Below, one piece after another: positions 28,381 to 52,874 of a stretch of DNA of 64,000 nucleotides; within the stretch, counting starts at the first letter, position 1; each line of letters starts with the position of its first letter. Origin of the DNA: Pseudomonadota bacterium (GTDB taxonomy: Bacteria > Pseudomonadota > Alphaproteobacteria > Rhodobacterales > Rhodobacteraceae); assembly GCA_036338635.1 (NCBI GenBank), contig JAYZBS010000045.1, positions 4,601-68,600 of the forward strand, written 5' to 3'. The notes below the pieces were generated by a model, which saw nothing but the letters and a program-made list of their open reading frames with translations, had not been told where the DNA came from and did no database searches. Position numbers and translations under genes: made by a program.

Positions 28381-29312
28381 ATGCCCGCAGCCCGCAAGGT
28401 CGTCATCACCTGCGCCGTCACTGGCGCGATCCACACCCCGTCCATGTCCCCGCACCTGCCGGTCAGCGCCAGCGAGATCGCCGAAGCCGCCATCGGAGCG
28501 GCCGAGGCCGGTGCCGCCATCGTCCACCTGCACGCCCGCGACCCCGATGACGGTCGCCCCGACCAGACGCCGGAGGCCTTTGAGCCGTTCCTGCGGGTGA
28601 TCAAGCAACGCTCGGACTGCGTCGTGAATATCACCACGGGCGGGGCGCCAACGATGAGCATCGCCGAGCGCGTCCGTCCTGCCGCCACTTGGAAGCCCGA
28701 GCTCGCCTCGCTGAACATGGGCTCGATGAATTTTGGCCTCTTCCCGATGCTGAAGCGGTTCGAGTCGGACCTGAAGCATGAGTGGGAACGGACCTACCTC
28801 GCCGACAAGGGCATCCTCTTCCGCAACACATTTGCGGACATCGAGCACATCCTGACGACGCTCGGCGCCAATGGCACCCGCTTCGAGTTCGAGTGCTATG
28901 ACACCGCCCATCTCTACAACCTCAAGCATTCGTCGATGCGGGGCTGGTCGAGGGGCCGCTGTTCATCCAGACGGTCTTTGGCCTGATGGGCGGGATCGGC
29001 GCCCATCCCGACGACGTCATGCACATGAAGCGCACGGCGGACCGGCTGTTTGGCGACAACTACCGCTGGTCCGTCCTCGGCGCTGGCCGCAACCAGTTGC
29101 CCCTCGCGGCCATGGCGGCCGCCATCGGTGGTCATGTGCGTGTGGGCCTCGAGGACTCGATCTGGGCCGGGCCGGGCAAGCTTGCAGAGAGCAACGCCCA
29201 GCAGGTCCGCGCGGCGCGTCAGATCATCGAAGGGCTGGGGCTCGAGGTCGCGACCCCCGACGAGGCGCGCGGCCTGCTAGCGCTGATGGGGAGAGACAAG
29301 ACATCCTTTTGA
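28381..29312 (+). pseudogene. Beta-keto acid cleavage enzyme (BKACE/Kce, DUF849), -1 frameshift at ~28930
   Basis: ITCAVTG, IVHLHARD, ECYD, RVGLED; CATTCGTC where CATTTCGTC would restore HFVDAGL..PLFIQTVFG. Confidence 0.88.
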
Positions 29313-29370
29313 GTGAGGCATTCGGATGGCGGCTAGTCGGAGACGACTAGCAGAACTGAAGGAGCTTCAA

Positions 29371-29575
29371 TGTTAATTAGGTGTTTGATCCCATGGTTTG
29401 ATGGTGCGATCCTTTCCGCGGAATGGAAGGAAGCATTATGGGCCAAGTTCGTCACGGAAGCGCCACGACCACGCACGCCGTCAGAGCTGCAATACAGCGA
29501 TCGCAAGCTTCGCTCGCAAGGCTGAGCCGGGAGCTTGGCATCAACCCAAAGACAGTGGCGAAATGGCGCAAGCCC
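29371..29575 (+). mobile_element. IS481-family 5' fragment
   Basis: TGT-starting end; MGQVRHGSATTTHAVRAAIQRSQAS..GINPKTVAKWRK from ATG 29438. Confidence 0.75.
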
Positions 29576-29645
29576 GCAAATCATCGCCTTGTTCTGGATG
29601 GAATTTTCTGGATCGCGCGGACCGGCTCTCCTTGGCGTGACTGTA
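29576..29645 (+). mobile_element. IS5-family (DUF4096-type) N-terminal fragment
   Basis: NHRLVLDGIFWIARTGSPWRD. Confidence 0.65.
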
Positions 29646-29691
29646 TCGACCCAGTGAAACCTGCTCATGCTACAAGGAGTAAAACGTAGCG

Positions 29692-30305
29692 ATGAGTGGA
29701 CCATTGGAAGACGTCGACAAGCGGTGGACGGCCAAGCGTAAGTCGGCGCTGGTCATCGAGATCATTCAGGGCAAGACGACGGTGGCGGAAGCCAGCCGCA
29801 GCTATGACCCTTCTCCATCGGAGATCGAAGGCTGGGTTGGTGATGCCCGTCGGGGCATGGAGAACGCACTGCGGACAAACCCGCTCGATGTTCGCCAGGA
29901 ATACGAGAAGCGGTTCCGGGATCTACAGGAAGCCTATGGCGAGGCTATGCTGGAGCTGCGCGCGCGATAAAGTTGGCGGCCCTCATGGTGAGCCATTGAG
30001 CCGCCATCGGTCCGAGGCCAATGGCGAACGGAGGACGACAATTGATCCGGACGCTTCATGAGGGCCTTCTGGCGGATGGCATCAGAGTGTCGCTGGTGAA
30101 GCTCTGCGCCTGGTTCGGCGTCCCGCGGCGGACGGTGTATTACAAACCCGTCAAGGCCGCGCCGGAGGTCGATCCCCGCTTCGCCGAGCCGATCAAGGCC
30201 ATGATCGAGGAAAACCCGTCGTTCGGCTATCGGACGGTGGCATTTCTGCTGGGCTTCAACAAGAACACCGTGCAGCGGATCTTCCAGCTGAAGAACTTGC
30301 AGTGA
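29692..30305 (+). mobile_element. IS3-family remnant: DUF1153 orfA plus truncated orfB
   Basis: RWTAKRKSALVIEIIQGKTTVAEASR; orfB LCAWFGVPRRTVYY..PSFGYRTVA..NKNTVQRI. Confidence 0.85.
29985..30029. repeat. Palindromic mini-insert, copy 2 (IS3 orfA/orfB junction)
   Basis: ATGG + 32 nt (TGAGCCATTGAGCCGCCATCGGTCCGAGGCCA) + ATGG; GCCATTG/CAATGGC stem. Confidence 0.75.
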
Positions 30306-30397
30306 CCTGCCCCTCGGAACGTCTCTCGGTTTAATGTAGAGTTTGCTTCATCACGAAGGAGCAGATGACATGAGAAAAAGCCGCTTCACCGAGGCGC
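30303..30397 (+). mobile_element. Second IS3-family left end with orfA stub
   Basis: TGACCTGCCCC end; MRKSRFTEA from ATG 30370. Confidence 0.7.
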
Positions 30398-30770
30398 GGC
30401 ATTGTTGCAGAACTCGGCGTTGAGGCGTGATTTTCCCTTACCCATTAAACCCATGCCACGTGCTCAATCTCGGCGGTGCCGAGGGCGTTGAAGCGGTTCA
30501 TGAGTGCGATGCGGATGTGGATCTCGGCCGCTTGTCTGTCGGGGTCTCGCGAAGCAATCCTTTCGCCAAAGGATTTGAGGCAGCGCATCTTCGCCTCGAT
30601 CCGACTTCGCATGTCATAGCCAGCCCAGTGCTTCCAGTTCGTCCGGCCAAAGCGTTTGCTCGCCCGCAGGATGTCGTTGCGGGCGCGGGCAGCAGGGCAG
30701 TCCTCCTTCCAGAGGCGTCCGTTCTTGCGGATCGGGATGACGGCCGTGCCGCCGCCGCGATCCACGATTG
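30398..30770 (-). mobile_element. IS5 (IS903 group) 3' fragment with right IR
   Basis: IPIRKNGRLWKEDC..RSRIEAKMRCLK..GERIASRDPDRQ; IR GGCATTGTTGCAGAA at 30398. Confidence 0.8.
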
Positions 30771-30784
30771 CGCTGCGCCAGCCG

Positions 30785-31033
30785 ATCGGTGCTCTTCTCG
30801 CCGTAGTCCGCGCCGGTCTTGGCGCCGACCTCCAGTTCCATCAGTCGCTCGGCCACGAAGCCGATCATCTCACGAAGCACGTCGGCGTCTGCGCTCTGTT
30901 CGACATGCGCACGCAGGTCCATCATGGGTTTGGTCATCGGGTATTGTCCTTGGTTCAGGTTGGTTCTCACAACCCGACCCTACCGGGAAACCCGATGGCC
31001 ACCGAAAGCTACACCACGTCCGTGGACGTCACC
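30785..31033 (-). mobile_element. IS256-family 5' fragment
   Basis: MTKPMMDLR..DADVLREMIGFVAERLMELEV..RLAQRN from ATG 30937; end sequence CTACACCACGTCCGTGGACG. Confidence 0.8.
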
Positions 31034-31794
31034 TCCCGCAAGGGAGCCACCCGAGCCGATGCGCACTGGGAATTGCACGGGGACGAGCTGCAGGCCAACC
31101 AGAGCCCCGGAACGTTGCGCATGCCACAGGAGGGCAGCTTAGCGATATTCGGACCCACCGCGTGTCGCAGGGGCGGTCAGTTCGACCGCGCGAGATCTTG
31201 GACGCCCGCGATGGCAAGCGCCAAGCTGCTTGCGCGAGCCAACGCCGGAGTGGCGCTGGAGACGTCCAACAACCGGGCGGCGCCACTCGGAACGCACAGA
31301 CAATACAAGCCGCCCGGTTGTTGATTGAGTGATCGCTCAACCATTGCTTCTTGAACAGCTGTCTTAATCGACACCCGCCCGCCGCCGCACTGGATGTGAC
31401 AGGGAAAGCAGCATGGCCAGCGGGCGCTTAAGGCGCAGGATGAGCGCCCGCCGCTGCCGGTCCGCAGAATTGCATCCTACGACGCGTCCTCGGCCTAGAT
31501 GACGTCACCGGGCATACACTTGGCGACCACAAGAAATGGGCCGACGAGCGGAGCTGCAGCCGAAGCCTCCCCGGCCGCATAAGAATTCAGCCCGATGTTG
31601 TCGTCAGGCTCGGTCATTCCGTCTGCCGGTAGCCAAGCCGGAACTGTGCCAGTCCCAGATCGCTGACATGGCCGTGCCTGCTGCCGCTCGTCATCATCTC
31701 CCGCCGACCGGACGGTGGCCGCAAAAGCATACCCTGCTCATTCGGGATCGGCTGTAGATGGGGGCCGTGACGCGGCGCGACTGGCTGTTTTACC

Positions 31795-31925
31795 CATGCG
31801 GATGAATGGATTTTATCCCAATGGATGAACGCACTCCCCCTGCTGCCAATCCTGCGCATGACGAAAACGCCGGCGGCATTTCATTGTGGACGGCCGAACT
31901 AATCATTCTGACTTTTCGCAGGATC
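31795..31925. other. Candidate oriT (RP4/IncP-type nic-like)
   Basis: AATCCTG|C at 31848-31855; inverted ATCCTGCG/CGCAGGAT (31849/31917); direct repeat CCCA..GGATGAA; sits upstream of the mob genes. Confidence 0.4.
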
Positions 31926-31973
31926 TGCATAATTTACCTGTCGGAACATCCCCATGAAGGAGACGCACCGACG

Positions 31974-32375
31974 ATGACCCTGATCACCGAAACCCAGCTG
32001 ACGGCCATGCGCGCGGCGCTCGCGGCGCTCGAGGCGAAGCCGAAGACGCAGTTCACCAATCCCGAGGTGGTGGAGGCACTCGCCCGCGAGATCCGCCACG
32101 CGCAGGACAAGCTCGGCTACAGTCTGACCGACATTGCGCTGCTGCTGCAGAAGCACGGCATGAGCATCCAGCCGACGACGCTGCGCGGCTATCTGCGCAG
32201 GCTGAAGGAGGCGGCGCCGAAGCCGAAGGCGCGCAAGACGCGGACCTCCACGGCAAGGACGATGCCCGCTGCGGCGGGGCCGGCCGTGGTGGTTGACGGG
32301 ACTGCGCCGCTTTCCGGCGAAACGATGGCGGATGATGACGTTGTGCTGGAGGTGGTCGATGGCCAGGGCGGGTGA
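31974..32375 (+). CDS. Mobilisation accessory protein, resembling pTF-FC2/pTC-F14-type MobC
   Basis: EVVEALAREIRHAQDKLGYSLTDIALLL..GMSIQPTTLRGYLRR pattern with a Pro/Lys/Ala tail; RBS AAGGAG. Confidence 0.6.
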   Translation: MTLITETQLTAMRAALAALEAKPKTQFTNPEVVEALAREIRHAQDKLGYSLTDIALLLQKHGMSIQPTTLRGYLRRLKEAAPKPKARKTRTSTARTMPAAAGPAVVVDGTAPLSGETMADDDVVLEVVDGQGG

Positions 32376-32706
32376 CGGGCGGCCCCGCTCGGCGGCGCGT
32401 CAGAGAACGGTGGTCCTGCGGTTTCGCGTCAGCGACGAGGAGCACGGGCGGATCCGCGCGGCCGCTGCTGCGGGCCGTCATGCCAACACGGCTGCCTATC
32501 TGCGCGCCTGCGCGCTGCACGCCGGGCCCCGCCCGGTGCCCGCAGCTCGCCTTGTCGGCGGGCTCGGGCTGATCGCGGGGCGGCTCGCCGCGATCACCCG
32601 GCTGGCCGAGCGGGGCGGGATGGCCGCGATCATCGCGGAGGCGAACGAAGCCGAGGCCGCGCTGGCGGCCTGTCTGCGGGACGTGATGGCGGAGGATGCA
32701 GGATGA
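32359..32706 (+). CDS. Ribbon-helix-helix relaxosome accessory protein (MobC/TraJ-like)
   Basis: RTVVLRFRVSDEEHGRIRAAA..AAYLRACAL; overlaps the relaxase start. Confidence 0.75.
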   Translation: MARAGDGRPRSAARQRTVVLRFRVSDEEHGRIRAAAAAGRHANTAAYLRACALHAGPRPVPAARLVGGLGLIAGRLAAITRLAERGGMAAIIAEANEAEAALAACLRDVMAEDAG

Positions 32707-34517
32707 TCGCGAAGGTGATCCACCCGAAGCGCCGCGCATGTGCCGGCGCCGAGGACCGCTTTGCCGCGCGCCTGCGCTATGCCTGCGGCAAGGCCGCGGC
32801 CATCGAGACGGGCAATCTGGTCGGCACCTGGCCGGCGGCGGCGGTGCAGATGCGCGTGGTTGCGGCGGCAAGCGCGCGGGTGCGCCAGCCCTGCCACCAT
32901 GTCGTCCTGTCTTGGGGCGACGGGGAGGCGCCGTCCGACACGGCGGCCCTCGCCGCGGGCCGGATGGTGGTGCTGCGGATGGGCTGGCAGGACCATCAGC
33001 ATGTGCTGGCCGTGCACCGCGATCGCCCGAACCTGCATGTCCATCTGGTGTTGAACCGGGTCCATCCGCGGACCGGAAGAGCCTGCTCGCTCGGCCATGA
33101 CTATGCCCGGCTCGAGCATGCCTGCCGCAGCACCGAGATGGTCTTCGGCTGGCCCCCGGATCGCGGCCGGTTCCAGACGGAAATGAGTAAGGGCGTGCTG
33201 CGGCTGGTGCCGATGCCGGAGGCGCATTGGCGGGCCCGCCATGCGGCGCGGGAGGCCGGGCTGCGCACCGATCCGCTCAGCGTGCGCGGACCCGAACGGC
33301 GTTCGGGCACGGCACCCCTGCGCGACCGGCTGCCGGCCTCGATCCTGCAGCGCGCGCAACAGCTGCTTGCGGATGTGGCCAGTTGGGCGGGGCTTCATGC
33401 GGGTCTTGCCGCACTCGGCCTGCGCTATCTGCGCCATGGCAGCGGGGCGCGCGTGACGGAGAGGGACGGCAGCGGCGCCATGCCGGCCTGTCATCTGGGC
33501 GCCGCCTTCGGATTGGCCCGCATGGTAGCGCGGCTCGGGCGCTTCCGCCCTGCCCCGACACCAGACGCCGTTCTGCCGGTTGTGGCTCGGCCGGAAGCCG
33601 CAGCGCGCGCGGCGTATGACCGCGCCCGCGCCGAACGTCGGGCGCGGCGGGCCGACCTTGGCCGCGAGCACAAGGCCGAACGCAGTGGGCTGGGCCATGC
33701 GCTGCGCGGGCTCGATCCCGTCATTGCCGACGCCTTTCGGGTGGCGCTGCAGGCCGAGCAGCGCGCGGCGCGGACGGCGTTCCGCGCCATCCCGCTGCCG
33801 CGCCTGGCCGATTACGGGATGACGATCCCGGCCCCGACCTCATGGGCATCCCGCGACAGCCGGCATCGGCATCTGCGGCGCGAGGCGCAATGCTGGCAGG
33901 CGGATCCCACCTTCCCGCGCCCACCGCTCGATCACACCCGCGCCCGCCAATTGTGGCACTTGGCAAGTGCGCAGGCGGGGCCTGACGACCGTCATGTCCA
34001 TGCCGATGATGGGGCGGGTCTGCGGCGCGTCGCCAAGAGCCGGATGCTGCTGGCCCGGCGCAGCCCGGACGAGGCGGTGCTCGGCTATGACTTGATCACC
34101 GAGACGCGCGACGGACGCCTGATCGCCACTCCGATCTCCGGCATGCACCACGCCCTCGGGCTGATCGGCCCGCGCCGGGCGCGGCACTGCCTGGTGACGA
34201 CGGATGCGGGCATGGGCGCGAGGCTCGCGGTCGCAAGGCCGACCGAGCTGGTGATCGTCGCGTCCCCCTCCCCTGCCCCGCGACTGGCCGGCTGGTTGCG
34301 GAAGCTCGTGGGGGGCCGCTCGGCCTCTCTCGACTGCGCAGCAGGTTCGGATGATGCGGCGCAGCTGCGCGCCTGCTTGCCGCAGGCTGTCCTGTCCGAC
34401 GCTGGTGCCCCCGGACCTGTGGCACTACCGCCGCGACAGGACATGCATGCTGCCGAGATAGAGAGCGACGCGCGCGCTGCGACGGACCCCGGGGATGATC
34501 CCCCTGCCCCGGGCTGA
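32703..34517 (+). CDS. MOBP-type relaxase
   Basis: Motif I Tyr (RLRYAC), motif II CHHVVLSW, motif III AVHRDRPNLHVHLVLNRVHP. Confidence 0.88.
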   Translation: MIAKVIHPKRRACAGAEDRFAARLRYACGKAAAIETGNLVGTWPAAAVQMRVVAAASARVRQPCHHVVLSWGDGEAPSDTAALAAGRMVVLRMGWQDHQHVLAVHRDRPNLHVHLVLNRVHPRTGRACSLGHDYARLEHACRSTEMVFGWPPDRGRFQTEMSKGVLRLVPMPEAHWRARHAAREAGLRTDPLSVRGPERRSGTAPLRDRLPASILQRAQQLLADVASWAGLHAGLAALGLRYLRHGSGARVTERDGSGAMPACHLGAAFGLARMVARLGRFRPAPTPDAVLPVVARPEAAARAAYDRARAERRARRADLGREHKAERSGLGHALRGLDPVIADAFRVALQAEQRAARTAFRAIPLPRLADYGMTIPAPTSWASRDSRHRHLRREAQCWQADPTFPRPPLDHTRARQLWHLASAQAGPDDRHVHADDGAGLRRVAKSRMLLARRSPDEAVLGYDLITETRDGRLIATPISGMHHALGLIGPRRARHCLVTTDAGMGARLAVARPTELVIVASPSPAPRLAGWLRKLVGGRSASLDCAAGSDDAAQLRACLPQAVLSDAGAPGPVALPPRQDMHAAEIESDARAATDPGDDPPAPG

Positions 34518-34805
34518 GCCAAGGCAATGGAGATAAGAGGACAGCCGCGAAGCGGTCGCCCGGAGAAAGCTGCGCGGAGCCGAAGCGGCCAAGGGCGCGA
34601 CGCTGCACGGCCGGGGCGCACTTGAGACGCCGTCCCGAGAACGCCCTCGTCGCCGTCCACATAAATCCGACTGACGACAGGCGCAGAGCCCTGCGCATGT
34701 CGACGATCGAGCTTAGACTGTCGCCACCACGGAAAGAATTCCGGCCCCACCTGAGAACCCTTCGACCCCCGGCGCCTGCCCCGCAGGTGCAGACGACGCG
34801 AGGCC

Positions 34806-36824
34806 ATGCCCATGACCATCACCCGGACCATCAACACCAGCGATGGCACGCAGATCTCCGAGAACAGGTCGATGTGCTGCCGGCATGTGTCGAGCCTTCT
34901 GCCCGAACTGACCGACCCGGAGCGTGTCGTCGAGGCCAGTCATGAGGAGACGAGCGCAGCTGCTGTCTCTCCCGTCCATTCGGAGGAACCGTTCAGCAGC
35001 TTGTCCCGCGACAAGGCCTTTGCAGAGGCGGCAGGGCCGACTGTGGAAGACACCGCCCACCCCGACAGGGTGCCCTTGCGGACCTCCGCGGCGTCAGGTG
35101 CGCGAGGCCCGGATGGGCAGGTAGCCGAAGGCGACGCGGACCTGCGCCGCTTCTTCGAGGATATCCATCGCACCCTGCCGACGAACTTTACCCTGAATGA
35201 GAACATCCCATGCATTCTCTACAAGGGCATGAGGTTCTGCGACCCGCTGCGTGTCGTGTCTCACGCCCGTCGCATCGATGGCACGGGCTGGATGCTCGAT
35301 CTGGAGATCCTCGACGGCGACATGACGCCCCGCCGGATGCCGGTGTCGCGGATGGATCTCAAATCCAAGCCGACCATGCTGCTCAGCGCGCTCGCCGATC
35401 GCGGCTTCCGGCTCTTTTGCCTGCGGGAGGACTTTTTCGAGTTCTTGAACATCTGGGACCGCGCGCCGAGAAGTTGGCGCGCGGATCACCCCGGGTGGTT
35501 CGAGGCGCCCTCGGATGCGCCCAGCTATCTGCGCCCCGATGGGACCCGGCACGCCCCGGCCAGGGCGCAGGCAGAGGCCGTTCTGGCCGAACCGCTGCGT
35601 GATCCCTACGGCCGGTCCGGCAGCCTGGCCGGCTGGCAGACGGAGATCGCCCGCCGGGCGATCGACAATCCGGCCCTCGTCTTTGCCATCTCGGCGGCGC
35701 TCGCCGGCCCGCTGCCGCGACTGGTCGGGCTTCAGACCGCGGGCTTCAATTTCTTTGGCACCGCGGCCAGCGGCAAGTCGCTCCTGCTCCATGTGGCAGC
35801 GAGCGTGCTTGGCCACCCGGAGGGGGTCAGCCCCTGGTCGGCAGCCACCACCGGTCTGCATCGGCTGAGCGCGGAGGCGCAGGACAGCCTGCTGGCGCTC
35901 GATGGCTACCCGCTCCGGCCCGACGGCCAGCACCGGCGCGCTCTGCTCGCGATCGGCAATGATGCCGGGGCCGGCCGGGCGCTGTCTGCGCGCGATCCGC
36001 ATGGCAGCAAGCGCTGGCGGCGGGTGATCCTGTCCACTTCGGAGACCCCGCTTCGCAGCAGCCTCGGGCAAGGCAAGCAGGCGCCCCCTGCCCCGCTCTT
36101 GCGCCGCATGATCGATCTGCCGGCTGAAATCCACGCGCACGGAGCTTTTGCGGCTCTTCACGGCGCCGCGGATGGCGCCAGTTTCACGCGCGGGCTGGAA
36201 CGCGCGCTACGCCGGCATCACGGCCATCTTCTTCCGGCATTTCTGGAACGGTTGATTGCAGATCTCGACCGGCATGCCGAGACCCTCGACGCCGATCTTC
36301 AGCGCCTCACCACCCGGATCATGGCGCATGCGCAGCGTGCGGCGCCATCCTCCCCCGCCGCCGACGCCCCCGGCGCCGAGCGCCTCGCCCTTGTCGGCTG
36401 CGCCGGCGAGATGGCCATCCGCTTCGGGTTGCTGCCCTGGCCAGACGGCACGGCAAGCGAGGCCACACATGCGATGGCCAACCTGGCGCAACACTTACCG
36501 ACGGGATCAGGCTGGGACGCCTCACGGGCCCGGGCCGAACTGCGCCGCTATGCCGAGAAGAACGACACCCGGATCGTCGATCTCGACGCGGCCCCGCGGC
36601 CTACCGGCGATGTCCCTCTCGTCGGCTGGCAGGATCGCGATCATCTCTACCTGTCCGGCGATCCGCTGCGGGGCGAAGTCGAGGCGCTCGACGACTTGCT
36701 GGCCGCCGTCGATCATATCCTGAAGCCCGGCGGCGAGGCCCGATCAAAGCAATACCGCATGCCCGCGACGAAGGTCCCCGACCGGCCCCGGGTCTATCGC
36801 TTCGACAAGGCAAAGCTCGGATAG
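34806..36824 (+). CDS. DUF927 (Cch-like) P-loop helicase-family protein
   Basis: GSLAGWQ..LVFAISAALAGPL, Walker A GTAASGKS, WRRVILSTSE, RMIDLP. Confidence 0.82.
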   Translation: MPMTITRTINTSDGTQISENRSMCCRHVSSLLPELTDPERVVEASHEETSAAAVSPVHSEEPFSSLSRDKAFAEAAGPTVEDTAHPDRVPLRTSAASGARGPDGQVAEGDADLRRFFEDIHRTLPTNFTLNENIPCILYKGMRFCDPLRVVSHARRIDGTGWMLDLEILDGDMTPRRMPVSRMDLKSKPTMLLSALADRGFRLFCLREDFFEFLNIWDRAPRSWRADHPGWFEAPSDAPSYLRPDGTRHAPARAQAEAVLAEPLRDPYGRSGSLAGWQTEIARRAIDNPALVFAISAALAGPLPRLVGLQTAGFNFFGTAASGKSLLLHVAASVLGHPEGVSPWSAATTGLHRLSAEAQDSLLALDGYPLRPDGQHRRALLAIGNDAGAGRALSARDPHGSKRWRRVILSTSETPLRSSLGQGKQAPPAPLLRRMIDLPAEIHAHGAFAALHGAADGASFTRGLERALRRHHGHLLPAFLERLIADLDRHAETLDADLQRLTTRIMAHAQRAAPSSPAADAPGAERLALVGCAGEMAIRFGLLPWPDGTASEATHAMANLAQHLPTGSGWDASRARAELRRYAEKNDTRIVDLDAAPRPTGDVPLVGWQDRDHLYLSGDPLRGEVEALDDLLAAVDHILKPGGEARSKQYRMPATKVPDRPRVYRFDKAKLG

Positions 36825-36830
36825 GCCCTC

Positions 36831-36858
36831 AACCGTCCAACCGTCCAACCGTCCAACC
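36831..36858 (+). repeat. Tandem 8-mer (AACCGTCC)x3.5, iteron-like
   Basis: AACCGTCC AACCGTCC AACCGTCC AACC, 6 nt after the DUF927 stop. Confidence 0.9.
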
Positions 36859-37413
36859 ACGACAGCTTCTCGGCCGGTTCTGCAAGAGGTTCTCGGTGCT
36901 AAGGGCCATGATCTCCACTGTGGCGCGGCCCTTTATGTCAGGCAGTCGGGGGGCAGTGTCCATGTCCCATTGTGCCGGCGGAACGGTATCCGGTTCGAGT
37001 CGCAAGGGGCAGTCCAGCAAGCCCACCATGTCTCATCTGGTCCACCGCCTGGACATCTCTATCGCCATTCCAACCTCGACCGGCGCTTCAGTCGCCCACT
37101 CGTCTCGGCGCTCCCGCAGCGCGGCCATCATTCACCGTGGTCAAACCTTCGCCGGGTCGTTTCCAACCGTTGGGCTAGCAATTTGTGGGTCATCCAAAGA
37201 CGTGTGGCGATGTCCATCTTGGCGTATCGTATGTCATCAACTGCCAGCACGTCCGATTTTCCCGCAACGTAGTTTTTTCCTGCTGCGGTGTTGACATGCC
37301 GATTCGCGACCGCCAGAATCACCCCATGTCGCGGCAAATGCCCGACGGGCCTCAGCGGGGCATCCTACCTCCCCGCCGAGACCCTGACCAGCCAATCTGA
37401 TGTGGAGACTGAC

Positions 37414-37917
37414 ATGGCTACCGATACCCCTACCACCGCGCCTAGCGCGGCGAAAGCGCCGTTCTGGTCCGCCAGCTTCTACGGCTTGCAGTTCATTTCT
37501 CTCCTCGACGCATGGGGCGAGCATATCACGGCTCAGCGCATCCTGGAATGGACCGACCCTGCCGATCCCGGTTACGAGCGTGCGGCGGCTTGGGCCGAGA
37601 TGGCGCTGCCGAGCTTTCATCAGACTCTCCTCAACGCGCTCGAGGCCGCGCCGAAGGAGCCGCTCGATCTGCCCCTGCGCCGGATGACGCTTCTCGTCGC
37701 GACGCTGGTCCGGGAGGACCGCGGCTCGGCTTTTATTCGCTACGAAGCGTTGAAGAGCGAGTTTGCGCCGTTCTTCGTCGTCACGGGCGGAGGTCCTGCG
37801 GCGGATGAAGTGCGTGCGATGCTCGCTTCCGCCGAACGGCGTCTGACGTTGATGTCGCGGCTGTCCTGCTATCGCACCGAGAGTGCGGCGTGCGAAGCCG
37901 AGCTGCTCGCAGCCTGA
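37414..37917 (+). CDS. Hypothetical protein (167 aa)
   Basis: RBS GGAGA before ATG 37414; GC-rich third codon positions; no motif recognised. Confidence 0.7.
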   Translation: MATDTPTTAPSAAKAPFWSASFYGLQFISLLDAWGEHITAQRILEWTDPADPGYERAAAWAEMALPSFHQTLLNALEAAPKEPLDLPLRRMTLLVATLVREDRGSAFIRYEALKSEFAPFFVVTGGGPAADEVRAMLASAERRLTLMSRLSCYRTESAACEAELLAA

Positions 37918-38068
37918 CACTTCTCCTGATTCCTGACAGCCTGGGCTGACGCCTTCCGGATCTGCGGGTGGCGCCATCTCGCGCGTCGATGTCCGCGTTT
38001 CGACATCGGTGCCCCCACGCGTGTCCGGCTGTCCCTTTTTTTTCCCATTCCAAACGGGAGGACCACGC

Positions 38069-39115
38069 ATGTCCTTTTATGACCTTGCCCCGGCCGACAC
38101 CAACGGCGGGGAATTCCATCCCATCTACGCGCACCCCATCCCGGATCACTGGCATGATTGGGCTGAGGACAAGGGCTTCGAGATCGTCGAGCGCGTCCTG
38201 GACAAGAACCATCTCCAGCTGCGTTGCGACAGCTGCGGCGGAGACATGGTTTCAAAGGTCTTCGTGTTGCGCTCCGCGACGCCGCGCTGTCCGCACTGTC
38301 TCAATGACCGACGCGAGCGCTTGTGCGCCGAGGCTGGCGTCACCTTTATCGAGGCCGACGGATCGCATGACTTCTGGATCCGCTTGCCATGCGGTCATGA
38401 GACGGGCCGGCAGCAGTCGCTCCTGGAACGCGTCAGGGCGGTCGAGGTCAATATCCGCTGCGAAGACTGCCTCGACGCGCGGCTGGAGGCGGAGGCGGAA
38501 GCCCGCGGGTGGCGGGTCATCGATGGTGATCCCGACGGCGACCATGATTACCTGCTTTATCGGCACGGCTGCGGTCATGAGCAGCGGGCTGCAATCATCA
38601 ACATGCGCACGGGACGCCTGACATGCCATGGCTGCAGCGACGCGTGGACCAGCGCTCCGAGCTACATCTATGCGATGCGTTTCGGTCTTAAGAGCGGGCG
38701 GAATGCAATCAAGGTCGGATATTCCCGTGATCCGTGGTCGCGCCTGCGCCATCAGCTGGTGACCGACCTCGAGCAAGACGCCGAACTGGTTCGGGTCATC
38801 CCGATCCGCACCGGCCATGACGCTATCCGGCGCGAGAAGCGCCTGCATGCCATGCTGCGCGATCTTCATCCCGAGGCCGTGCTGGAGCCGGCTGAGTTCG
38901 CCGGTCAGGTCAAGGTCAGGTCGGAGCTCTACTGCGCCAGCATTGAACCCGAGATCATGGCCCTGCTGGACGACATCGAGCTGCGCGTCAGGTCGCTGGC
39001 GAAGCGTGCCAAAAGGCTCGCCCGCCGCCGCGCGCGGCAGGAGGCTCGGCGCGCCAGGAACCATCAGCGCCGCAAGCGGAACGGTGGCTGCGGCGCCCGC
39101 GCCGCCATCGTCTGA
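38069..39115 (+). CDS. Triple Zn-finger-repeat protein with C-terminal GIY-YIG (T5orf172-like) nuclease
   Basis: RBS GGGAGG; CDSC..CPHC / CGH..CEDC / CGH..CHGC repeats; YIY..IKVGYSRDPWSRL..REKRLH..SELY. Confidence 0.82.
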   Translation: MSFYDLAPADTNGGEFHPIYAHPIPDHWHDWAEDKGFEIVERVLDKNHLQLRCDSCGGDMVSKVFVLRSATPRCPHCLNDRRERLCAEAGVTFIEADGSHDFWIRLPCGHETGRQQSLLERVRAVEVNIRCEDCLDARLEAEAEARGWRVIDGDPDGDHDYLLYRHGCGHEQRAAIINMRTGRLTCHGCSDAWTSAPSYIYAMRFGLKSGRNAIKVGYSRDPWSRLRHQLVTDLEQDAELVRVIPIRTGHDAIRREKRLHAMLRDLHPEAVLEPAEFAGQVKVRSELYCASIEPEIMALLDDIELRVRSLAKRAKRLARRRARQEARRARNHQRRKRNGGCGARAAIV

Positions 39116-39163
39116 CGACGCCCACCGATCACGCAATCCGATCCAATTCATATGGAGGTCCCG

Positions 39164-41293
39164 ATGACCGATCCTGACACGCCGGCAGCCGTTCCGCCTT
39201 GCCCCGAATGGCGCACTTACGCCGCCGAGATCCTCGACCGCGCGCGCGAGGAGGAGAAGCGCAATGACGCCGAGCGGGCAATCCTGCTTCAGGAGCATGG
39301 CGAGGCCGCTGACGACCTGCCCCCGCTGCGCGGCGAAGGCGCGGTGTCGTATACGTCCCGCCGGCAGCAGATGATGATCCTCTGCCTCGCGGCGACCGTC
39401 GGCAGCGAAGCCCGGCTGCGGGAGGAGCTGGAGCGCAAAGCCGTCGTCGCGATCACCGGCCTGCCGGATGATCTCCTCAAAGATGCGCGCCGGCTCCTGC
39501 CGCTCCTCCTCCCGCCTGGCTGGCAGATTGCGCGGACGGAGCACGAGCGCCGACGTCCCGGCGCGGTCGCGGTGATCGAACCCGGACAGAGCTACAGCGG
39601 CTACGCCCGAGAACAAATGGAGAAAAATCTGGTGGAGGCCCTGACGCTGGATGTGCCGCTTATCCTGCTGCTGCCTGACGCGATATCGGCCGGAGAGATC
39701 CTTGGTGCGGCGGAGGTTCCGCGCTGGCCGTATCGCAGAATGGATCGCGAGATCGCCGCGGAGCTGCTTGCGCTGAGCTGGCCGCAATCCGACCCTGCGG
39801 CCCTTCGCGAGGAGCTGCCGTCAGATGATCAGCTCACGGCGACACCGATGCTGGCTCTCATGCTCGCACTGCGCAGCGACAACATCGAAGAGGCCGCAAA
39901 GGTGCTCCGCGACACGCCCCGGGAGCCGAACCCCGGGACCTTCAAGGACAAGTTCAAAGCGATCGCGCCCGACAAGGCGAAGGCGGAGGCGCGGAAACAG
40001 ACCGGCATTCGCCTCGCTGATCTCGCGGGCCTCGGCGCAGCGCGCGATGTGGCTCTCGGCATCGTCGAGGACCTGAAGGCGTGGCAGGCTGGCGAGCTCT
40101 CCTGGGACGCAGTCCATCGCGGCACGCTCGTCGCCGGCCCTCCCGGCGTCGGCAAAACAGAGTTGGCCCGCGCGATGGCACGCGAACGTGGCATCCACCT
40201 TGAGAGCGGCAGCTACGCTCAGTGGCAATCTCGCGGCGCCCTGGGGGATATGCTCAAGGCGATGCGCGCCAGCTTCGCGACGGCGGCCGACCAGGCGCCG
40301 TCGATCCTTTTTTTGGACGAGCTCGACGCCTTCGGGTCGCGGACGAGCGCGCGAACCAGCCAGCATCAGAGCTACGACACCAAAGTGATTGCCGCCTTGC
40401 TGGAGCAGCTCGACGGCGTCGAGGGGCGGGAGGGTGTCGTAGTGCTGGGCGCGTGCAACCATCCGGACCACATCGACCCCGCAATCCTGCGCGCGGGGCG
40501 TTTCGACACGTGCGTCGAGATATCCCGACCCGACGCCGTGGCCCTCGCGATCATCCTGCGCCAACACCTCGAAAATGACCTGCCCGAGGCCGACCTCACC
40601 GCGCTCGGGCAGATGGCCTTCGGCCTCTCGGGCGCGGACTGCGCGGCCGCCGTTCGGGCGGCACGAGGCGTTGCCCGCCGCGCGGGGCGGCCGCTGACGC
40701 CCGACGATCTGCGCACGGCGCTGGTCCCGAACCATCTCGCGCTGCCCCCGGACATGCGCCGCCGCGCGGCTGTTCATGAAGCCGGCCACGCCGTGGTAAT
40801 GACCGCGCTCGGCGTGGGCGAGGTGAAGGTCCTTCGCCTCAGCCCGGACGGCGGCGAAACGCAACTGCGCTGGTTCAACATGGACGTGACGCGGAACATG
40901 CTGCAGCAGCGCTGCGCCGCGCATCTCGCGGGGCGCGCCGCCGAAATCCTGCTGCTGGGAGAGCCAAGCGGCGGCGCTGGTGGCACCGACGACAGCGATC
41001 TGCACGCCGCGACCGTGCTCATGCTGCAGTGCCACTTGAGCCTCGGCTTGGGGGACGTGGGCCATCTCTCGCTTGGCGCGCCACCCGCGGCAACGACGCT
41101 GCTCGCGCTGCCGGGGTTCATGCGGCAGAACATGCAGCGCGACCTCGACCGGGCGCTCACACTGGCACTGGAAGTTCTCCAACGGCATCGGCCGACCTTG
41201 GAAAGCCTCGCGCGGGATCTCGAGATCCGAGGCTTCCTGGTGGAAGCGGATCTGACAGCGGCGCTGGCCCCAATCGGGGAGAAACTGCCATAA
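39164..41293 (+). CDS. Soluble FtsH-like AAA+ ATPase / peptidase M41
   Basis: GGAGG RBS before ATG 39164; GPPGVGKT, FLDELD, ACNH, ILRAGRFD, HEAGH, SDLHAAT; no TM helix. Confidence 0.88.
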   Translation: MTDPDTPAAVPPCPEWRTYAAEILDRAREEEKRNDAERAILLQEHGEAADDLPPLRGEGAVSYTSRRQQMMILCLAATVGSEARLREELERKAVVAITGLPDDLLKDARRLLPLLLPPGWQIARTEHERRRPGAVAVIEPGQSYSGYAREQMEKNLVEALTLDVPLILLLPDAISAGEILGAAEVPRWPYRRMDREIAAELLALSWPQSDPAALREELPSDDQLTATPMLALMLALRSDNIEEAAKVLRDTPREPNPGTFKDKFKAIAPDKAKAEARKQTGIRLADLAGLGAARDVALGIVEDLKAWQAGELSWDAVHRGTLVAGPPGVGKTELARAMARERGIHLESGSYAQWQSRGALGDMLKAMRASFATAADQAPSILFLDELDAFGSRTSARTSQHQSYDTKVIAALLEQLDGVEGREGVVVLGACNHPDHIDPAILRAGRFDTCVEISRPDAVALAIILRQHLENDLPEADLTALGQMAFGLSGADCAAAVRAARGVARRAGRPLTPDDLRTALVPNHLALPPDMRRRAAVHEAGHAVVMTALGVGEVKVLRLSPDGGETQLRWFNMDVTRNMLQQRCAAHLAGRAAEILLLGEPSGGAGGTDDSDLHAATVLMLQCHLSLGLGDVGHLSLGAPPAATTLLALPGFMRQNMQRDLDRALTLALEVLQRHRPTLESLARDLEIRGFLVEADLTAALAPIGEKLP

Positions 41294-41756
41294 ACGTCCT
41301 GATGCCGTCCCGATGAGACGATGATTGGCTACGACGGAGGCTGCATGACCATTGCGGGCTCTCAAGCGGCAAGCCCCGGCCGTCGCCATTGCTCAATCGA
41401 TCAAAGCGAGAGACTGCGCCCCGGAGGGGGTAAATGCTGCGAGATTGCCGGGACGAGACTGCCCGGCGGCGCCCTGCCCGGGATTTCGCCCGCAACACTC
41501 GTATGGCTGCGTGAAGGTCCCGGCGCCGCGTGCTTCTTGCCTTCCCTCACCAAGTCGTTATGTTCTGGCGCGCCCGGCCGGGAAGGCCGGGCCTGTTGCG
41601 CGTGCATCCGCATGCGCCGACGCGCGGCCTTTCGTGGCGCGCCTTCGGCCTGAACGCCGATCCGGATAAAGCCGCGGCCTGCGGCATTCGCAAACAGCGG
41701 TTGCCGCCTGCGGCATCGCCTTGGGCCGCTTTGTGTCAACAACGACGACAGGTGCA

Positions 41757-43829: not shown

Positions 43830-43892
43830 TAAATTTTAAAGATCTATTATGTATATTTATCAGGTACTTAATATGCTTTAGGTATGATATGA
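43830..43892. other. AT-rich tract (possible unwinding element or promoter relic)
   Basis: AAATTTTAAAGATCTATTATGTATATTTAT..TTAATATGCTTTAGG within otherwise GC-rich DNA. Confidence 0.5.
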
Positions 43893-43998
43893 GGTTCGCG
43901 GTGATCACCCGGCGTACTTGGCAATGCCTTTAACCCGGCCCTCGCCAGCGACCTCCGGCTTGGCGCCGGAAGCCATACGCCTGCCCCCTCGTAAGGGT

Positions 43999-44018
43999 GG
44001 GTAACCCGCGGGTTACCC
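43999..44018. repeat. Perfect 20-bp palindrome, candidate parS
   Basis: GGGTAACCCGCGGGTTACCC overlaps the parB stop; half-site TTAACCCG at 43930. Confidence 0.7.
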
Positions 44019-44504
44019 TTCCCCAAGAACCCTGTGAAAGGCCTCGATCGCGCTTTGCAGTCGCTTCCGGTCGATCGACGAAAAGTCCGTGTCCGAGAGG
44101 ATACGGCATTCCCCTTTGCGGGCAGTCACCTTTGCTGCCCCGACATGAAACTCGTACTTGACCGCCTTTTTCTGATCTGCAGCCCGCCCAGGAGCACCTC
44201 GATCAACTGGGGAGGCGAAGAAGCGCGAAAGCACATCGACCTGCTCGTCCGCCGAGCGCACCGACGCCAATGCGTCCCGAAGGTGTTGGGCGGTTTCCGG
44301 CGACGCCTGAATGCGCCTGGCAACCTCCACCCCAGATTGCGCGAGATGGCCTTGGGATAGGGAAGGACGTCGCCGAGTTCCTGCAGCAGGAAGACGAAGC
44401 TGCGGATATAGGACCGTTTCATCTTGTGAAGCGATGCAAAGATCCGACCGAAAAGGACATCCGGGCCCTGCCCGTCCAGCCCGGAATCCCCCGCCGCGGT
44501 GATG
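44013..44504 (-). pseudogene. Plasmid ParB-like partition protein, C-terminal remnant
   Basis: SLHKMKRSYIRSF..PKAISRNLG|VEVAR..YEFHVGAAKVTARKGECRI; cut by the IS at 44505; -1 in a G-run near 44330. Confidence 0.6.
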
Positions 44505-47047: not shown

Positions 47048-47109
47048 GGGCACCACGTCGGGAAAAGCGGACGGTCGGATTTGAGAATCCGCCGGAGAGA
47101 TTGGCAGAT

Positions 47110-47152
47110 TGACGAATCCGACAGAAAAGATCAGATATGATCAAACGTGTCA
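47110..47152. promoter_or_regulatory. Tandem Iron-Rhodo-box-like sites in the divergent promoter
   Basis: TGAT-N7-GTCA (47138-47152) and CGAC-N7-ATCA (47119-47133) versus the TGAC-N7-GTCA consensus. Confidence 0.4.
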
Positions 47153-47167
47153 ATCCAGCAGGCGATC

Positions 47168-50142: not shown

Positions 50143-50146
50143 AGTG

Positions 50147-52866: not shown

Positions 52867-52874
52867 GAGGCCGC

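What the first reader, a model, noticed from the sequence alone, without database searches (positions are those of the whole stretch)
31795..41293. Compact mobilisable element pairing a MOBP relaxosome with a DUF927 helicase and downstream iterons
MobC-like, RHH and relaxase genes are followed directly by a DUF927 helicase and a repeat-rich spacer, then three cargo genes, all on one strand. DUF927/Cch helicases are established in SCCmec and phage-satellite-like islands. Combined with a conjugative relaxase and no T4SS or coupling protein, this suggests a self-replicating hitch-hiker of conjugative elements.
Basis: inference. Interest (0 to 1): 0.65.

Follow-up and report, generated by a model that had tools for sequence, protein, structure and literature searches.

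The report
Portable DNA-transfer plus replication-initiator cassette
A 5-kb cassette found in Paracoccus-like bacteria always joins a DNA-transfer start site and its nicking enzyme to a relative of the replication starters of staphylococcal islands and that protein's own binding repeats, but the protein's motor site is broken, so it probably starts copying rather than unwinding DNA.

Summary
The genes and repeats are real and sit almost where stated. The core runs 31710-36858:
- an oriT-like site (inverted-repeat region plus CATACCCTG|C);
- a 134-aa HTH gene, which is not MobC;
- a NikA-like RHH gene;
- a MOBP-like relaxase;
- a DUF927 protein homologous to SaPIbov1 Rep and SCCmec Cch;
- three tandem GTCCAACC octamers directly after its stop codon.

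I found the same four-gene order in 14 other loci: Paracoccus, Qingshengfaniella and Cereibacter plasmids, two chromosome-sized contigs and metagenomes. All loci with sequence upstream of orf1 keep the oriT motif. All but one keep GTCCAAC tandems beside the DUF927 gene. Among 401 genomes of the family, the triple octamer occurs only beside such genes.

Three corrections:
- The three "cargo" genes are a separate cassette with their own promoter.
- No recombinase, att repeats or circular form were found here, and a relative's plasmid also carries RepC.
- The whole relaxase-linked clade lacks the Walker B glutamate, and some members have also lost Walker A. "Helicase" is therefore doubtful; an iteron-binding initiator is more likely.

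Verdict: a new variant of known mobilisable, self-replicating modules. Function is untested. The scan had noted DUF927 plus relaxase once before, on other DNA, with an integrase and a PrimPol fusion.

The parts
31710..31743 (+). oriT-like site: GGACGGTGGCCGCAAAAG-CATACCCTG|CTCATTC. It consists of an inverted-repeat region followed by a nic-like core at 31728-31736. It is also the left edge of the conserved unit.
   Evidence: The CATACCCTG core, preceded by G(G/A)CGGT, lies 215-285 bp upstream of orf1 in all 14 loci printed. A perfect hairpin (GACGGT..ACCGTC or GGCGGT..ACCGCC) is present in 6 of them. DNA homology to ME4 and to L052 starts at 31709/31710. The full motif is unique in the own genome.
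31884..31938 (+). Conserved non-coding blocks upstream of orf1 (TTGTGGACGGCCGAAC and GCAGGATCTGCATAATTTACC). Probably a promoter or operator.
   Evidence: Near-identical in four relatives and partly kept in P. aestuarii. The function is inferred.
31974..32375 (+). orf1: a 134-aa HTH protein with a disordered tail. Probably an oriT-binding accessory protein or regulator. Not MobC.
   Evidence: Gene calls of 134 aa in L040 and L043. Alignment of 11 orthologues shows an invariant LGYS..TLRGY helix-turn-helix region. No Pfam or NCBIfam family matched. StbA HTH hit at E 0.062 only.
32359..32706 (+). NikA-like ribbon-helix-helix relaxosome accessory protein (115 aa). It overlaps the orf1 stop and the relaxase start.
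   Evidence: PF21983 E 7.9e-9. Orthologues of 113-129 aa in relatives carry the same Pfam hit.
32703..34517 (+). MOBP-like relaxase (604 aa). N-terminal HUH nuclease domain, a TraI_middle-like region, a helical linker, and a conserved C-terminal alpha/beta domain (about 436-560) with a Toprim/primase-like fold.
   Evidence: PF03432 E 1.5e-24. NF041893 TraI_MobP E 3e-48, below its cut-off. Invariant Y26, H105, H112 and H114. AF2 model with pLDDT 74. Foldseek hits: T7 gp4 primase E 3.9e-3, DnaG 7.9e-3, NES and MobA relaxase domains. No sequence-level support for primase (hhalign probability 3%) and no DxD motif.
34655..34743 (+). Conserved motifs in the relaxase-DUF927 spacer: GTCCACATAAA (34655-34665) and the palindrome CGGAAAGAATTCCG (34730-34743). 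Probably regulatory sites for the DUF927 gene.
   Evidence: Both motifs recur in the same spacer in distant relatives L038, L001, L039 and L005. Positions. The function is inferred.
34806..36824 (+). DUF927 protein (672 aa) of the SaPIbov1-Rep / SCCmec-Cch family. Residues 1-100 are disordered and carry a conserved CCxxVxSLLP motif. The rest is a folded NTD, a P-loop domain and a CTD. Walker A is intact (GTAASGKS, 318-325). Walker B reads LLALDG, so the catalytic Glu is missing.
   Evidence: PF06048 E 1.8e-29. AF2 pLDDT 82, pTM 0.75. Profile against PDB: 8TCH E 1.7e-32, 5DGK E 3e-24. Foldseek: 1.6e-19 and 4.7e-18. Walker B is DG or DA in all 17 members of the relaxase-linked clade, against DE in 20 other DUF927 proteins and DD/DE in the solved homologues. 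Further Walker A loss occurs in some clade representatives. dN/dS is 0.2 for the folded part.
34974..34997 (+). Decayed remnant of a 5' iteron cluster (GTCCATTCGGAGGAACCGTTCAGC) inside the disordered-region coding part of the DUF927 gene.
   Evidence: The equivalent position holds intact GTCCAAC tandems in L043, L005, L038 and L002. L047 and L050 also carry 5' clusters within the called ORF.
36830..36858 (+). Iterons: (GTCCAACC)x3, 8-bp period, starting 6 bp after the DUF927 stop codon. Candidate binding sites for the DUF927 C-terminal domain, and so a candidate ori.
   Evidence: The same octamer core occurs in tandem beside the DUF927 gene in all but one of the loci checked. Copy number varies (3.6 here, 5.6 in L041/L052). 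It is the only such tandem in the own genome. Only 2 of 401 family genomes have it, each time beside DUF927 copies.
37128..37290 (-). Degenerate remnant of a CopG/RHH regulator gene, divergent from the downstream cassette.
   Evidence: Intact 54-60-aa RHH genes lie at this place in P. aestuarii, P. jeotgali, L041 and L048. The window shows only weak similarity over the C-terminal half (E 0.004 in a small database).
37291..37319 (+). Sigma-70-like promoter (TTGACA-17-CAGAAT) of the downstream three-gene cassette.
   Evidence: It is the only promoter-like site scoring 10 of 12 in 31500-41600. TTGACA is kept at the same place in P. aestuarii and P. jeotgali.
37414..41293 (+). Separate accessory cassette: a 167-aa unknown protein (37414-37917), a GIY-YIG/T5orf172-like protein (38009-39115) and a soluble FtsH-like AAA+/M41 protein (39152-41293). 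The conserved block ends at about 41315.
   Evidence: Pfam hits. The AAA domain resembles IetA/IteA. The cassette is present after the core in the window, L041/L052, ME4 and P. aestuarii (with a PDDEXK nuclease instead). It is separated from the core by three genes in L048. It is absent in L001, L039, L047, L049, L050 and L054. The right edge of homology is 41276-41315.

Best explanation
The region is a portable MOB-plus-initiator cassette of Paracoccaceae. It probably descends from a small mobilisable replicon and now sits inside a larger replicon between IS debris and metabolic genes. A separate three-gene accessory cassette is attached downstream.

Proposed mechanism:
1. The HTH protein and the NikA-like RHH protein bend and mark oriT at 31710-31743. 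The MOBP-like relaxase nicks at CATACCCTG|C. The strand is exported through a type IV secretion system supplied in trans. This is inferred from homology and a conserved site.
2. The DUF927 protein, a homologue of the self-loading SaPI Rep and SCCmec Cch initiators, binds the GTCCAACN octamers next to its own gene through its C-terminal domain. It opens or marks an origin there.
3. The whole clade has lost the Walker B glutamate, some members have lost Walker A, and no primase is paired with it. The protein therefore most likely acts as an ATP-hydrolysis-independent origin binder and melter. It would hand over to host helicase and primase rather than act as a motor. Origin binding and melting by SaPI Reps need no ATP.

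Shown here: the anatomy, the conservation of gene order, the oriT motif, the iterons, the homology, the motif loss and purifying selection.
Inferred: nicking, mobilisation, iteron binding and replication.
For: Gene order and co-divergence:
- The four-gene order is found in 14 other loci.
- Relaxase and DUF927 identities fall in parallel across hosts.
- More distant DUF927 genes in the same family are not next to a relaxase.

oriT and boundaries:
- The oriT motif is conserved in 14 of 14 loci and marks the sharp left edge of homology.

Iterons:
- They are conserved in sequence while the flanks are not, often as two clusters flanking the gene.
- The pattern is exclusive to DUF927 sites in 401 genomes, with zero hits for the reversed control.

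Homology:
- Homology to 8TCH and 5DGK extends into the C-terminal domain.
- Literature: the SaPI Rep C-terminal domain binds iterons immediately downstream of rep, and origin binding and melting are ATP-independent (PMC9371898). Three direct repeats 3' of cch2 are enough for Cch2 binding (PMC7581432).

Other support:
- Walker B loss is clade-wide, with extra Walker A decay in some members.
- dN/dS is 0.17-0.6, so the genes are kept by selection.
- No T4SS or T4CP was found in the genome.
Against: - There is no direct evidence of replication, circular forms or transfer.
- No recombinase lies on the 73-kb contig, and no att-like flanking repeat longer than 10 bp was found.
- The ME4 plasmid carrying the closest complete copy also has RepC, and two copies lie on chromosome-sized contigs. 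The module is therefore dispensable for maintaining its carrier.
- Iterons here are only three direct repeats. There is no inverted set and no A+T-rich region as in SaPI origins.
- One relative (L048) has no GTCCAAC tandems.
- Four of five host genomes checked lack VirB4, so helpers are usually absent.
- A motor-dead Rep homologue has no characterised precedent as an initiator.
Confidence: 0.5

Rival explanations
1. The cassette is simply the DNA-transfer (Dtr) module of the carrier plasmids. The DUF927 protein works in conjugative DNA processing, not in vegetative replication. It could be a relaxosome or establishment factor that assembles on the octamers, in the way helicase domains or plasmid primases accompany other relaxases.
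For: The genes are tightly linked, co-oriented and co-diverging with the relaxase operon. Carrier replicons have their own replication genes. The relaxase carries a C-terminal primase-like fold that could dock a partner. ATPase decay argues against a replicative motor.
Against: The octamers lie next to the DUF927 gene, 3-5 kb from oriT, which is the hallmark position of Rep/Cch origins (PMC9371898, PMC7581432). Most host genomes have no T4SS for such a module to serve. The cassette occurs on chromosome-sized contigs with unrelated flanks.
Confidence: 0.25
2. In this genome the copy is an inert fossil of a former small plasmid. It was trapped by IS-mediated cointegration and no longer replicates or transfers.
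For: There is IS debris on the left (29333-31670) and an IS5 element on the right. The 5' iteron cluster and the RHH gene have decayed. No helper T4SS and no recombinase were found.
Against: All seven ORFs are intact. The relaxase catalytic motifs and Walker A are intact. dN/dS against close relatives is 0.17-0.6. The oriT site and the 3' iterons are perfect copies of the family consensus.
Confidence: 0.15
3. The relaxase, not a T4SS-linked process, is the point. The relaxase nicks oriT to prime rolling-circle copying of the cassette. The motor-dead Rep-like protein marks a second-strand or helicase-loading site. Together they form a T4SS-independent hybrid replicon.
For: Four of five host genomes have no VirB4. 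No primase is paired with the Rep homologue. Homology starts exactly at oriT. Relaxase-driven rolling-circle replication is known for ICEs (my own knowledge of ICEBs1 NicK with PcrA/HelP).
Against: There are no data on copy number. MOBP-type relaxases with NikA-type partners are typical transfer proteins. Mobilisable elements commonly live without a resident helper.
Confidence: 0.1

Closest known systems
SaPI Rep-ori replicons (SaPIbov1 Rep, PDB 8TCH) and SCCmec Cch/Cch2
   Same: It belongs to the same protein family (DUF927; profile E 1.7e-32 to 8TCH and 3e-24 to 5DGK; same fold, including the C-terminal domain). Short tandem iterons lie immediately 3' of the gene. It is carried by a mobile element that depends on a helper for transfer.
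   Different: The helper route would be conjugation (relaxase and oriT), not phage packaging or ccr recombination. There is no primase or polymerase partner. The Walker B Glu is lost. The iterons are octamers in direct orientation with no A+T-rich centre. A second cluster often lies inside the gene's disordered-region coding part. No integrase is present in this copy.
IncQ plasmids (RSF1010/R1162)
   Same: The logic is the same: a compact mobilisable replicon in which relaxosome genes and replication genes are interleaved, the relaxase carries an extra C-terminal domain, and a dedicated replication protein and iterons are present with no T4SS.
   Different: The proteins are unrelated. IncQ uses a RepA DnaB-like helicase, a RepC initiator, a RepB' primase and 20-22-bp iterons. 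Here a Rep/Cch-family protein with a degenerate ATPase stands alone. The primase-like fold on the relaxase lacks catalytic motifs. The cassette is embedded in large replicons.
Mobilisable genomic islands with replication or DUF927 genes (SGI1; MGIVchHai6/MGIVflInd1)
   Same: These are non-conjugative elements that exploit helper T4SS and carry replication-type genes. DUF927 genes are conserved in MGIs, although their role is unknown and they are dispensable for mobilisation (PMC7449626). SGI1 replicates like a plasmid when its helper is present (PMC7826253).
   Different: Those islands have integrases, att sites and helper-controlled promoters, and they lack their own canonical relaxase next to DUF927. 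The cassette here has a full relaxosome operon and no recombinase.
R64 NikA/NikB and IncP TraJ/TraI relaxosomes (MOBP)
   Same: An RHH accessory protein is encoded directly upstream of, and translationally coupled to, a PF03432 relaxase. The oriT has a repeat followed by a CCTG|C-type nick core.
   Different: The relaxase scores below the NCBIfam MobP equivalog cut-off. The nick core is CATACCCTG, not YATCCTG. There is an extra upstream HTH gene and a C-terminal Toprim-like domain. No linked T4CP or T4SS is present.

Membership tests
MOBP (TraI/NikB-type) relaxases | MobA/VirD2-type HUH nuclease domain with an HxDx(n)HxH motif and an N-terminal catalytic Tyr | tested here: met
   PF03432 E 1.5e-24. 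H105, D107, H112, H114 and Y26 are invariant in 23 orthologues.
MOBP (TraI/NikB-type) relaxases | Score above the curated TraI/MobA(P) equivalog threshold | tested here: not met
   NF041893 scores 165 bits against a cut-off of 250. It is still the best-matching relaxase model.
MOBP (TraI/NikB-type) relaxases | oriT with an inverted repeat 5' of a YATCCTG|Y nick core | tested here: inconclusive
   A conserved repeat plus CATACCCTG|C lies upstream of the operon in 14 of 14 loci. The core differs by one base from the consensus, which I recalled from memory. Nicking was not tested.
SaPI Rep / SCCmec Cch self-loading initiator helicases (DUF927) | DUF927 domain and homology to the solved Rep and Cch structures | tested here: met
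   PF06048 E 1.8e-29. 8TCH E 1.7e-32 and 5DGK E 3e-24. Foldseek E 1.6e-19 and 4.7e-18.
SaPI Rep / SCCmec Cch self-loading initiator helicases (DUF927) | Intact ATPase site: Walker A GKS/T and Walker B D-[DE] | tested here: not met
   Walker A is present, but Walker B is LDG. The whole clade has G or A at that position, while other DUF927 proteins, Rep and Cch have E or D.
SaPI Rep / SCCmec Cch self-loading initiator helicases (DUF927) | Short iterons immediately downstream of the gene | tested here: met
   (GTCCAACC)x3 begins 6 bp after the stop codon and is conserved across relatives.
SaPI Rep / SCCmec Cch self-loading initiator helicases (DUF927) | Two oppositely oriented iteron sets around an A+T-rich region | tested here: not met
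   The window holds only direct repeats. The spacer is 60% G+C with no A+T-rich tract. Relatives often have two direct clusters flanking the gene instead.
SaPI Rep / SCCmec Cch self-loading initiator helicases (DUF927) | Adjacent or fused primase or polymerase partner | tested here: not met
   No Toprim, AEP or polymerase gene lies in the cassette. Only a weak primase-like fold is seen at the relaxase C-terminus, and it has no sequence support.
SaPI Rep / SCCmec Cch self-loading initiator helicases (DUF927) | Helicase and origin-binding activity | not testable with these tools
   This needs purified protein.
Integrative mobilisable elements (IMEs) | Own integrase or recombinase, and att repeats at the ends | tested here: not met
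   No serine recombinase is present in the genome, and tyrosine recombinases occur only on other contigs. The longest flank repeat is 10 bp. Only the P. aestuarii copy has a large serine recombinase next to it.
Integrative mobilisable elements (IMEs) | oriT and relaxase without a mating-pore apparatus | tested here: met
   No Pfam or NCBIfam hit even at E 1-5. It is an HTH protein with a weak StbA-like hit (E 0.062).
IncQ-type replicons | RepA (DnaB-like) helicase, RepC initiator, RepB' primase and 20-22-bp iterons | tested here: not met
   None of these families was detected. The iterons are 8 bp. The resemblance is in logic only.

The most novel reading that the evidence does not exclude
The cassette would be an undescribed replicon type of Rhodobacterales. 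A conjugative-type relaxase and an ATPase-dead descendant of the SaPI Rep/Cch helicases would work as a pair. The relaxase nick at oriT would supply the priming 3' end. The Rep-like protein, bound to octamer iterons that partly lie inside its own coding sequence, would load host helicase. The cassette could then copy itself, and whatever lies downstream, without any T4SS. This would explain why most hosts have none.
Probability: 0.12. Interest if true: 0.8.

Novelty: new variant of a known kind. Interest (0 to 1): 0.55.

Why it matters
- If the cassette replicates, it adds a replicon type to the Rhodobacterales catalogue. That catalogue lists RepABC, RepA, RepB, DnaA-like, RepC_soli, RepL, RepQ, RepY and RepW (PMC9025767). 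It would also give a compact oriT-plus-ori module usable for vectors in Alphaproteobacteria.
- It links two fields usually treated apart: SaPI/SCCmec-type Rep initiators and conjugative relaxosomes.
- The clade-wide loss of the Walker B glutamate, with Walker A decay in some members, is a natural experiment. It asks which functions of self-loading helicases (origin recognition and melting) survive without the motor.
- DUF927 genes are conserved but unexplained in mobilisable genomic islands of Vibrio and Salmonella relatives. A tractable, relaxase-linked clade could help explain what they do.

Tried and rejected
- Megablast of the 9.9-kb region against PLSDB gave no match. Relatives were reached only through protein searches.
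- The genome-contig scan gave one locus and the metagenome scan gave two. No small circular contig consisting of the cassette alone was found. L052 (12 kb) has unrelated flanks and no terminal overlap.
- The idea that the octamers are a neutral microsatellite was rejected. The same core recurs beside genes only 35-46% identical while the flanks are unalignable.
- The scattered one-mismatch GTCCA-type words at 37140-37212 are not extra iterons. They lie in the decayed RHH coding remnant, whose intact counterpart is in L041.
- A relaxase-primase fusion could not be established. Foldseek gives primase domains at E 4e-3 to 1e-2, but hhalign against the genome's own DnaG gives 3% probability and the DxD motif is absent.
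- BKACE is not truncated by an insertion. It is frameshifted at 28986 and continues to 29312.
- The att-site search between the flanks found at most 10 bp.
- The parB remnant at 43830-44504 noted by the scan could not be confirmed. Pfam and NCBIfam gave no hits for the ORFs there, and no ParB_N, RepC or RPA was found in the assembly. Whether contig C45 is plasmid or chromosome stays open.
- PADLOC gave no known defence system for the cargo cassette beyond IetA-like AAA similarity.

Full report
**What is there**

The window is high-GC (about 66%), so I picked real frames by GC3 and by gene calls in relatives.

On the + strand lie:
- orf1, 31974-32375, 134 aa;
- a NikA-like RHH gene, 32359-32706 (PF21983, E 7.9e-9);
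- a relaxase, 32703-34517 (PF03432, E 1.5e-24; best NCBIfam model TraI/MobA(P), E 3e-48 but below its cut-off);
- a 288-bp spacer;
- a DUF927 gene, 34806-36824 (PF06048, E 1.8e-29);
- a 590-bp spacer;
- three further genes: a 167-aa unknown, a GIY-YIG/T5orf172-like protein and a soluble FtsH-like AAA+/M41 protein, ending at 41293.

orf1 is an HTH protein. It matches no MobC or any other family.

The spacer after the DUF927 gene holds:
- (CAACCGTC)x3.6 at 36830-36858;
- a decayed RHH gene on the minus strand;
- the only strong sigma-70-like promoter of the region, at 37291-37319.

**The gene order is conserved**

tblastn against plasmids, genome scans and look-ups of homologues recovered 14 other loci with orf1, nikA, relaxase and DUF927 in the same order:
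- Paracoccus sp. ME4 plasmid (79% DUF927 identity, all seven genes);
- P. jeotgali and Qingshengfaniella plasmids;
- the P. aestuarii chromosome;
- a 1.26-Mb contig;
- Paracoccus sp. Z118;
- Cereibacter changlensis;
- genome G273;
- several metagenome contigs.

Relaxase and DUF927 identities to the window fall in parallel.

In 34 genomes of the same family that hold any DUF927 gene, only the two with the closest DUF927 (36-46% identity) have a PF03432 relaxase next to it. The linkage therefore defines one clade.

**Edges and context**

DNA homology to ME4 and to a bioreactor contig (L052) starts at 31709/31710. Homology to L043 starts at 31676. It ends at 41276-41315, and the flanks are unrelated in each case.

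The downstream content varies among relatives:
- the three-gene cassette, with a PDDEXK nuclease in place of GIY-YIG in P. aestuarii, and displaced by three genes in L048;
- a methylase plus AbiE;
- CcdAB;
- arsenic-resistance genes;
- metabolic genes.

The constant core is therefore 31710-36858. The three "cargo" genes are a separate cassette.

Around the window copy:
- the left flank is IS debris and an IS5 element lies to the right;
- no recombinase is on the contig;
- no flanking direct repeat is longer than 10 bp;
- only the P. aestuarii copy is followed by a large serine recombinase.

**oriT**

About 250 bp upstream of orf1, every locus with sequence there has G(G/A)CGGT...(4-9 nt)...CATACCCTG|C. 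Six of them have a perfect hairpin immediately 5' of the core. Conservation begins abruptly at this repeat.

This is the usual layout of a nick region. The core is one base away from the MOBP consensus, which I recalled from memory. The full motif occurs once in the genome.

**Iterons**

The octamer core GTCCAAC occurs in tandem (period 8-9) beside the DUF927 gene in all but one of the loci checked. Its position varies:
- directly after the stop codon (window, L040-L043, L052, Qingshengfaniella, L039);
- in the first 50-180 nt of the ORF or just upstream (ME4, P. aestuarii, P. jeotgali, L043, L047, L049, L050);
- upstream of oriT (G273).

Often there are two clusters flanking the gene. L048 has none.

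Copy number varies among close relatives. The spacer is otherwise unalignable with ME4.

In 401 genomes of the family, GTCCAACNGTCCAACNGTCCAAC occurs only at the window site and at two sites in Qingshengfaniella. Both of those lie beside DUF927 copies. The reversed control gives zero hits (second copy seen).

The 5' clusters lie in the part of the gene that encodes a disordered N-terminus (pLDDT below 50 for residues 1-100; dN/dS 0.65-0.85 there against 0.2 for the folded part). In the window this 5' cluster has decayed (34974-34997).

**The DUF927 protein**

The AF2 model is confident for residues 108-672. A profile of the family matches SaPIbov1 Rep (8TCH, E 1.7e-32) and SCCmec Cch (5DGK, E 3e-24). 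The match reaches into the C-terminal domain. Foldseek ranks the same two first, then MCM and SaPI5 PriRep.

The literature states three relevant points:
- Cch (DUF927) is related to SaPIbov1 Rep.
- SaPI Reps bind iterons immediately downstream of rep through a C-terminal winged helix and need no ATP for origin binding or melting.
- Three direct repeats 3' of cch2 are needed for Cch2 binding.

(PMC7581432, PMC9371898, bioRxiv 10.64898/2026.10.17.759575)

Walker A is intact here, but Walker B reads LLALDG. All 17 members of the relaxase-linked clade have G or A where 20 other DUF927 proteins have E and where Rep and Cch have D or E.

I then searched 1.84 billion cluster representatives. Among the best 150 hits, 19 have G or A at this position. 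These include all of the closest 11. Several of them have also lost the Walker A lysine or the whole motif. The motor function therefore seems to be dispensable in this clade.

**The relaxase C-terminus**

Residues 436-560 form a conserved alpha/beta domain. Foldseek matches the primase domains of T7 gp4 and DnaG at E 4e-3 to 1e-2. However, hhalign against the genome's own DnaG gives 3% probability, and no DxD motif is present. I treat a primase function as unproven.

**Helpers and carriers**

- No VirB4 or coupling protein was found in the 96%-complete assembly.
- Of four other host genomes, only P. aestuarii has VirB4.
- The ME4 plasmid carrying the module also encodes RepC.
- No ParB, RepC or RPA gene was found in the window's assembly. 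The nature of contig C45 is therefore unknown.

**Reading**

The best reading is a portable cassette joining a MOBP-like relaxosome and oriT to a Rep/Cch-type initiator and its iterons. It works like a mobilisable mini-replicon, with IncQ-like logic and a SaPI-like origin, but it is embedded in larger replicons. The "helicase" is probably an ATP-hydrolysis-independent origin binder.

Purifying selection on all genes (dN/dS 0.17-0.6) argues against a dead fossil at the level of the lineage. Replication, nicking and transfer are all still inference.

**Novelty**

I found no paper linking DUF927 with a relaxase operon or with Paracoccus. The Rhodobacterales replicon catalogue has no such type.

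The scan's own notes record one other DUF927-plus-relaxase element, on other DNA, with an integrase and a PrimPol fusion. They also record several SaPI-like iteron origins next to DUF927 genes. I did not check those notes.

Noticed in passing
window 28381-29312: The BKACE (beta-keto acid cleavage enzyme) gene is split by a frameshift at 28986. Pfam positions 1-166 are in one frame and 178-274 in the next. This is either a pseudogene or an assembly error.
   Followed up: partly
window 29333-31670: An IS graveyard lies directly left of the cassette. It holds a chimeric HTH/DUF4096-like fragment (29423-29689), an IS3 orfA (29692-29970, HTH_Tnp_1), an HTH_23 fragment (30021-30305) and what reads like an IS256-type transposase N-terminus on the minus strand (about 30445-30970). 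The last was judged by eye and not tested.
   Followed up: partly
window 37128-41315; L038 12186-16114; L048 13565-17736: The cassette RHH + small unknown + nuclease + soluble FtsH-like AAA/M41 travels as a unit with its own promoter. Its nuclease is swapped in P. aestuarii (PDDEXK_5 instead of GIY-YIG-like). The AAA domain resembles the anti-phage IetA/IteA. In the window the RHH regulator has decayed.
   Followed up: partly
window 34872-34904 (DUF927 residues 23-33): A short conserved motif, CCxxVxSLLP, sits in the otherwise disordered and fast-evolving N-terminus of all clade members. It could be a docking peptide for the relaxase, a clamp or a transfer protein.
   Followed up: no
window 34655-34743: GTCCACATAAA and the palindrome CGGAAAGAATTCCG are conserved in the relaxase-DUF927 spacer across distant relatives. 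GTCCACA also occurs, inverted, in the conserved block upstream of orf1 (31884-31899). This hints at one regulator for both promoters.
   Followed up: partly
L040, L042, L043 (Logan contigs): Three independent assemblies all end exactly 35 bp after the DUF927 stop codon, inside the octamer array. The array probably varies in length or exceeds the assembler's word size in those samples.
   Followed up: partly
G130:C2:134493-134876: The Qingshengfaniella plasmid carries a second, broken DUF927 fragment (45% identity, an internal TGA) with its own intact triple octamer next to it. It is a decayed second copy that keeps its iterons.
   Followed up: no
whole assembly G000: No ParB_N match was found anywhere in a genome rated 96% complete, so even the chromosomal parB seems unassembled. 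Absences in this assembly should be read with care.
   Followed up: no
window 46043-54575 and L039 730-6835: Siderophore or iron-uptake genes (TonB-dependent receptor, FecCD, ABC ATPase) lie near the cassette both in the window and in an unrelated 1.26-Mb contig. This may be chance or a shared carrier backbone.
   Followed up: no
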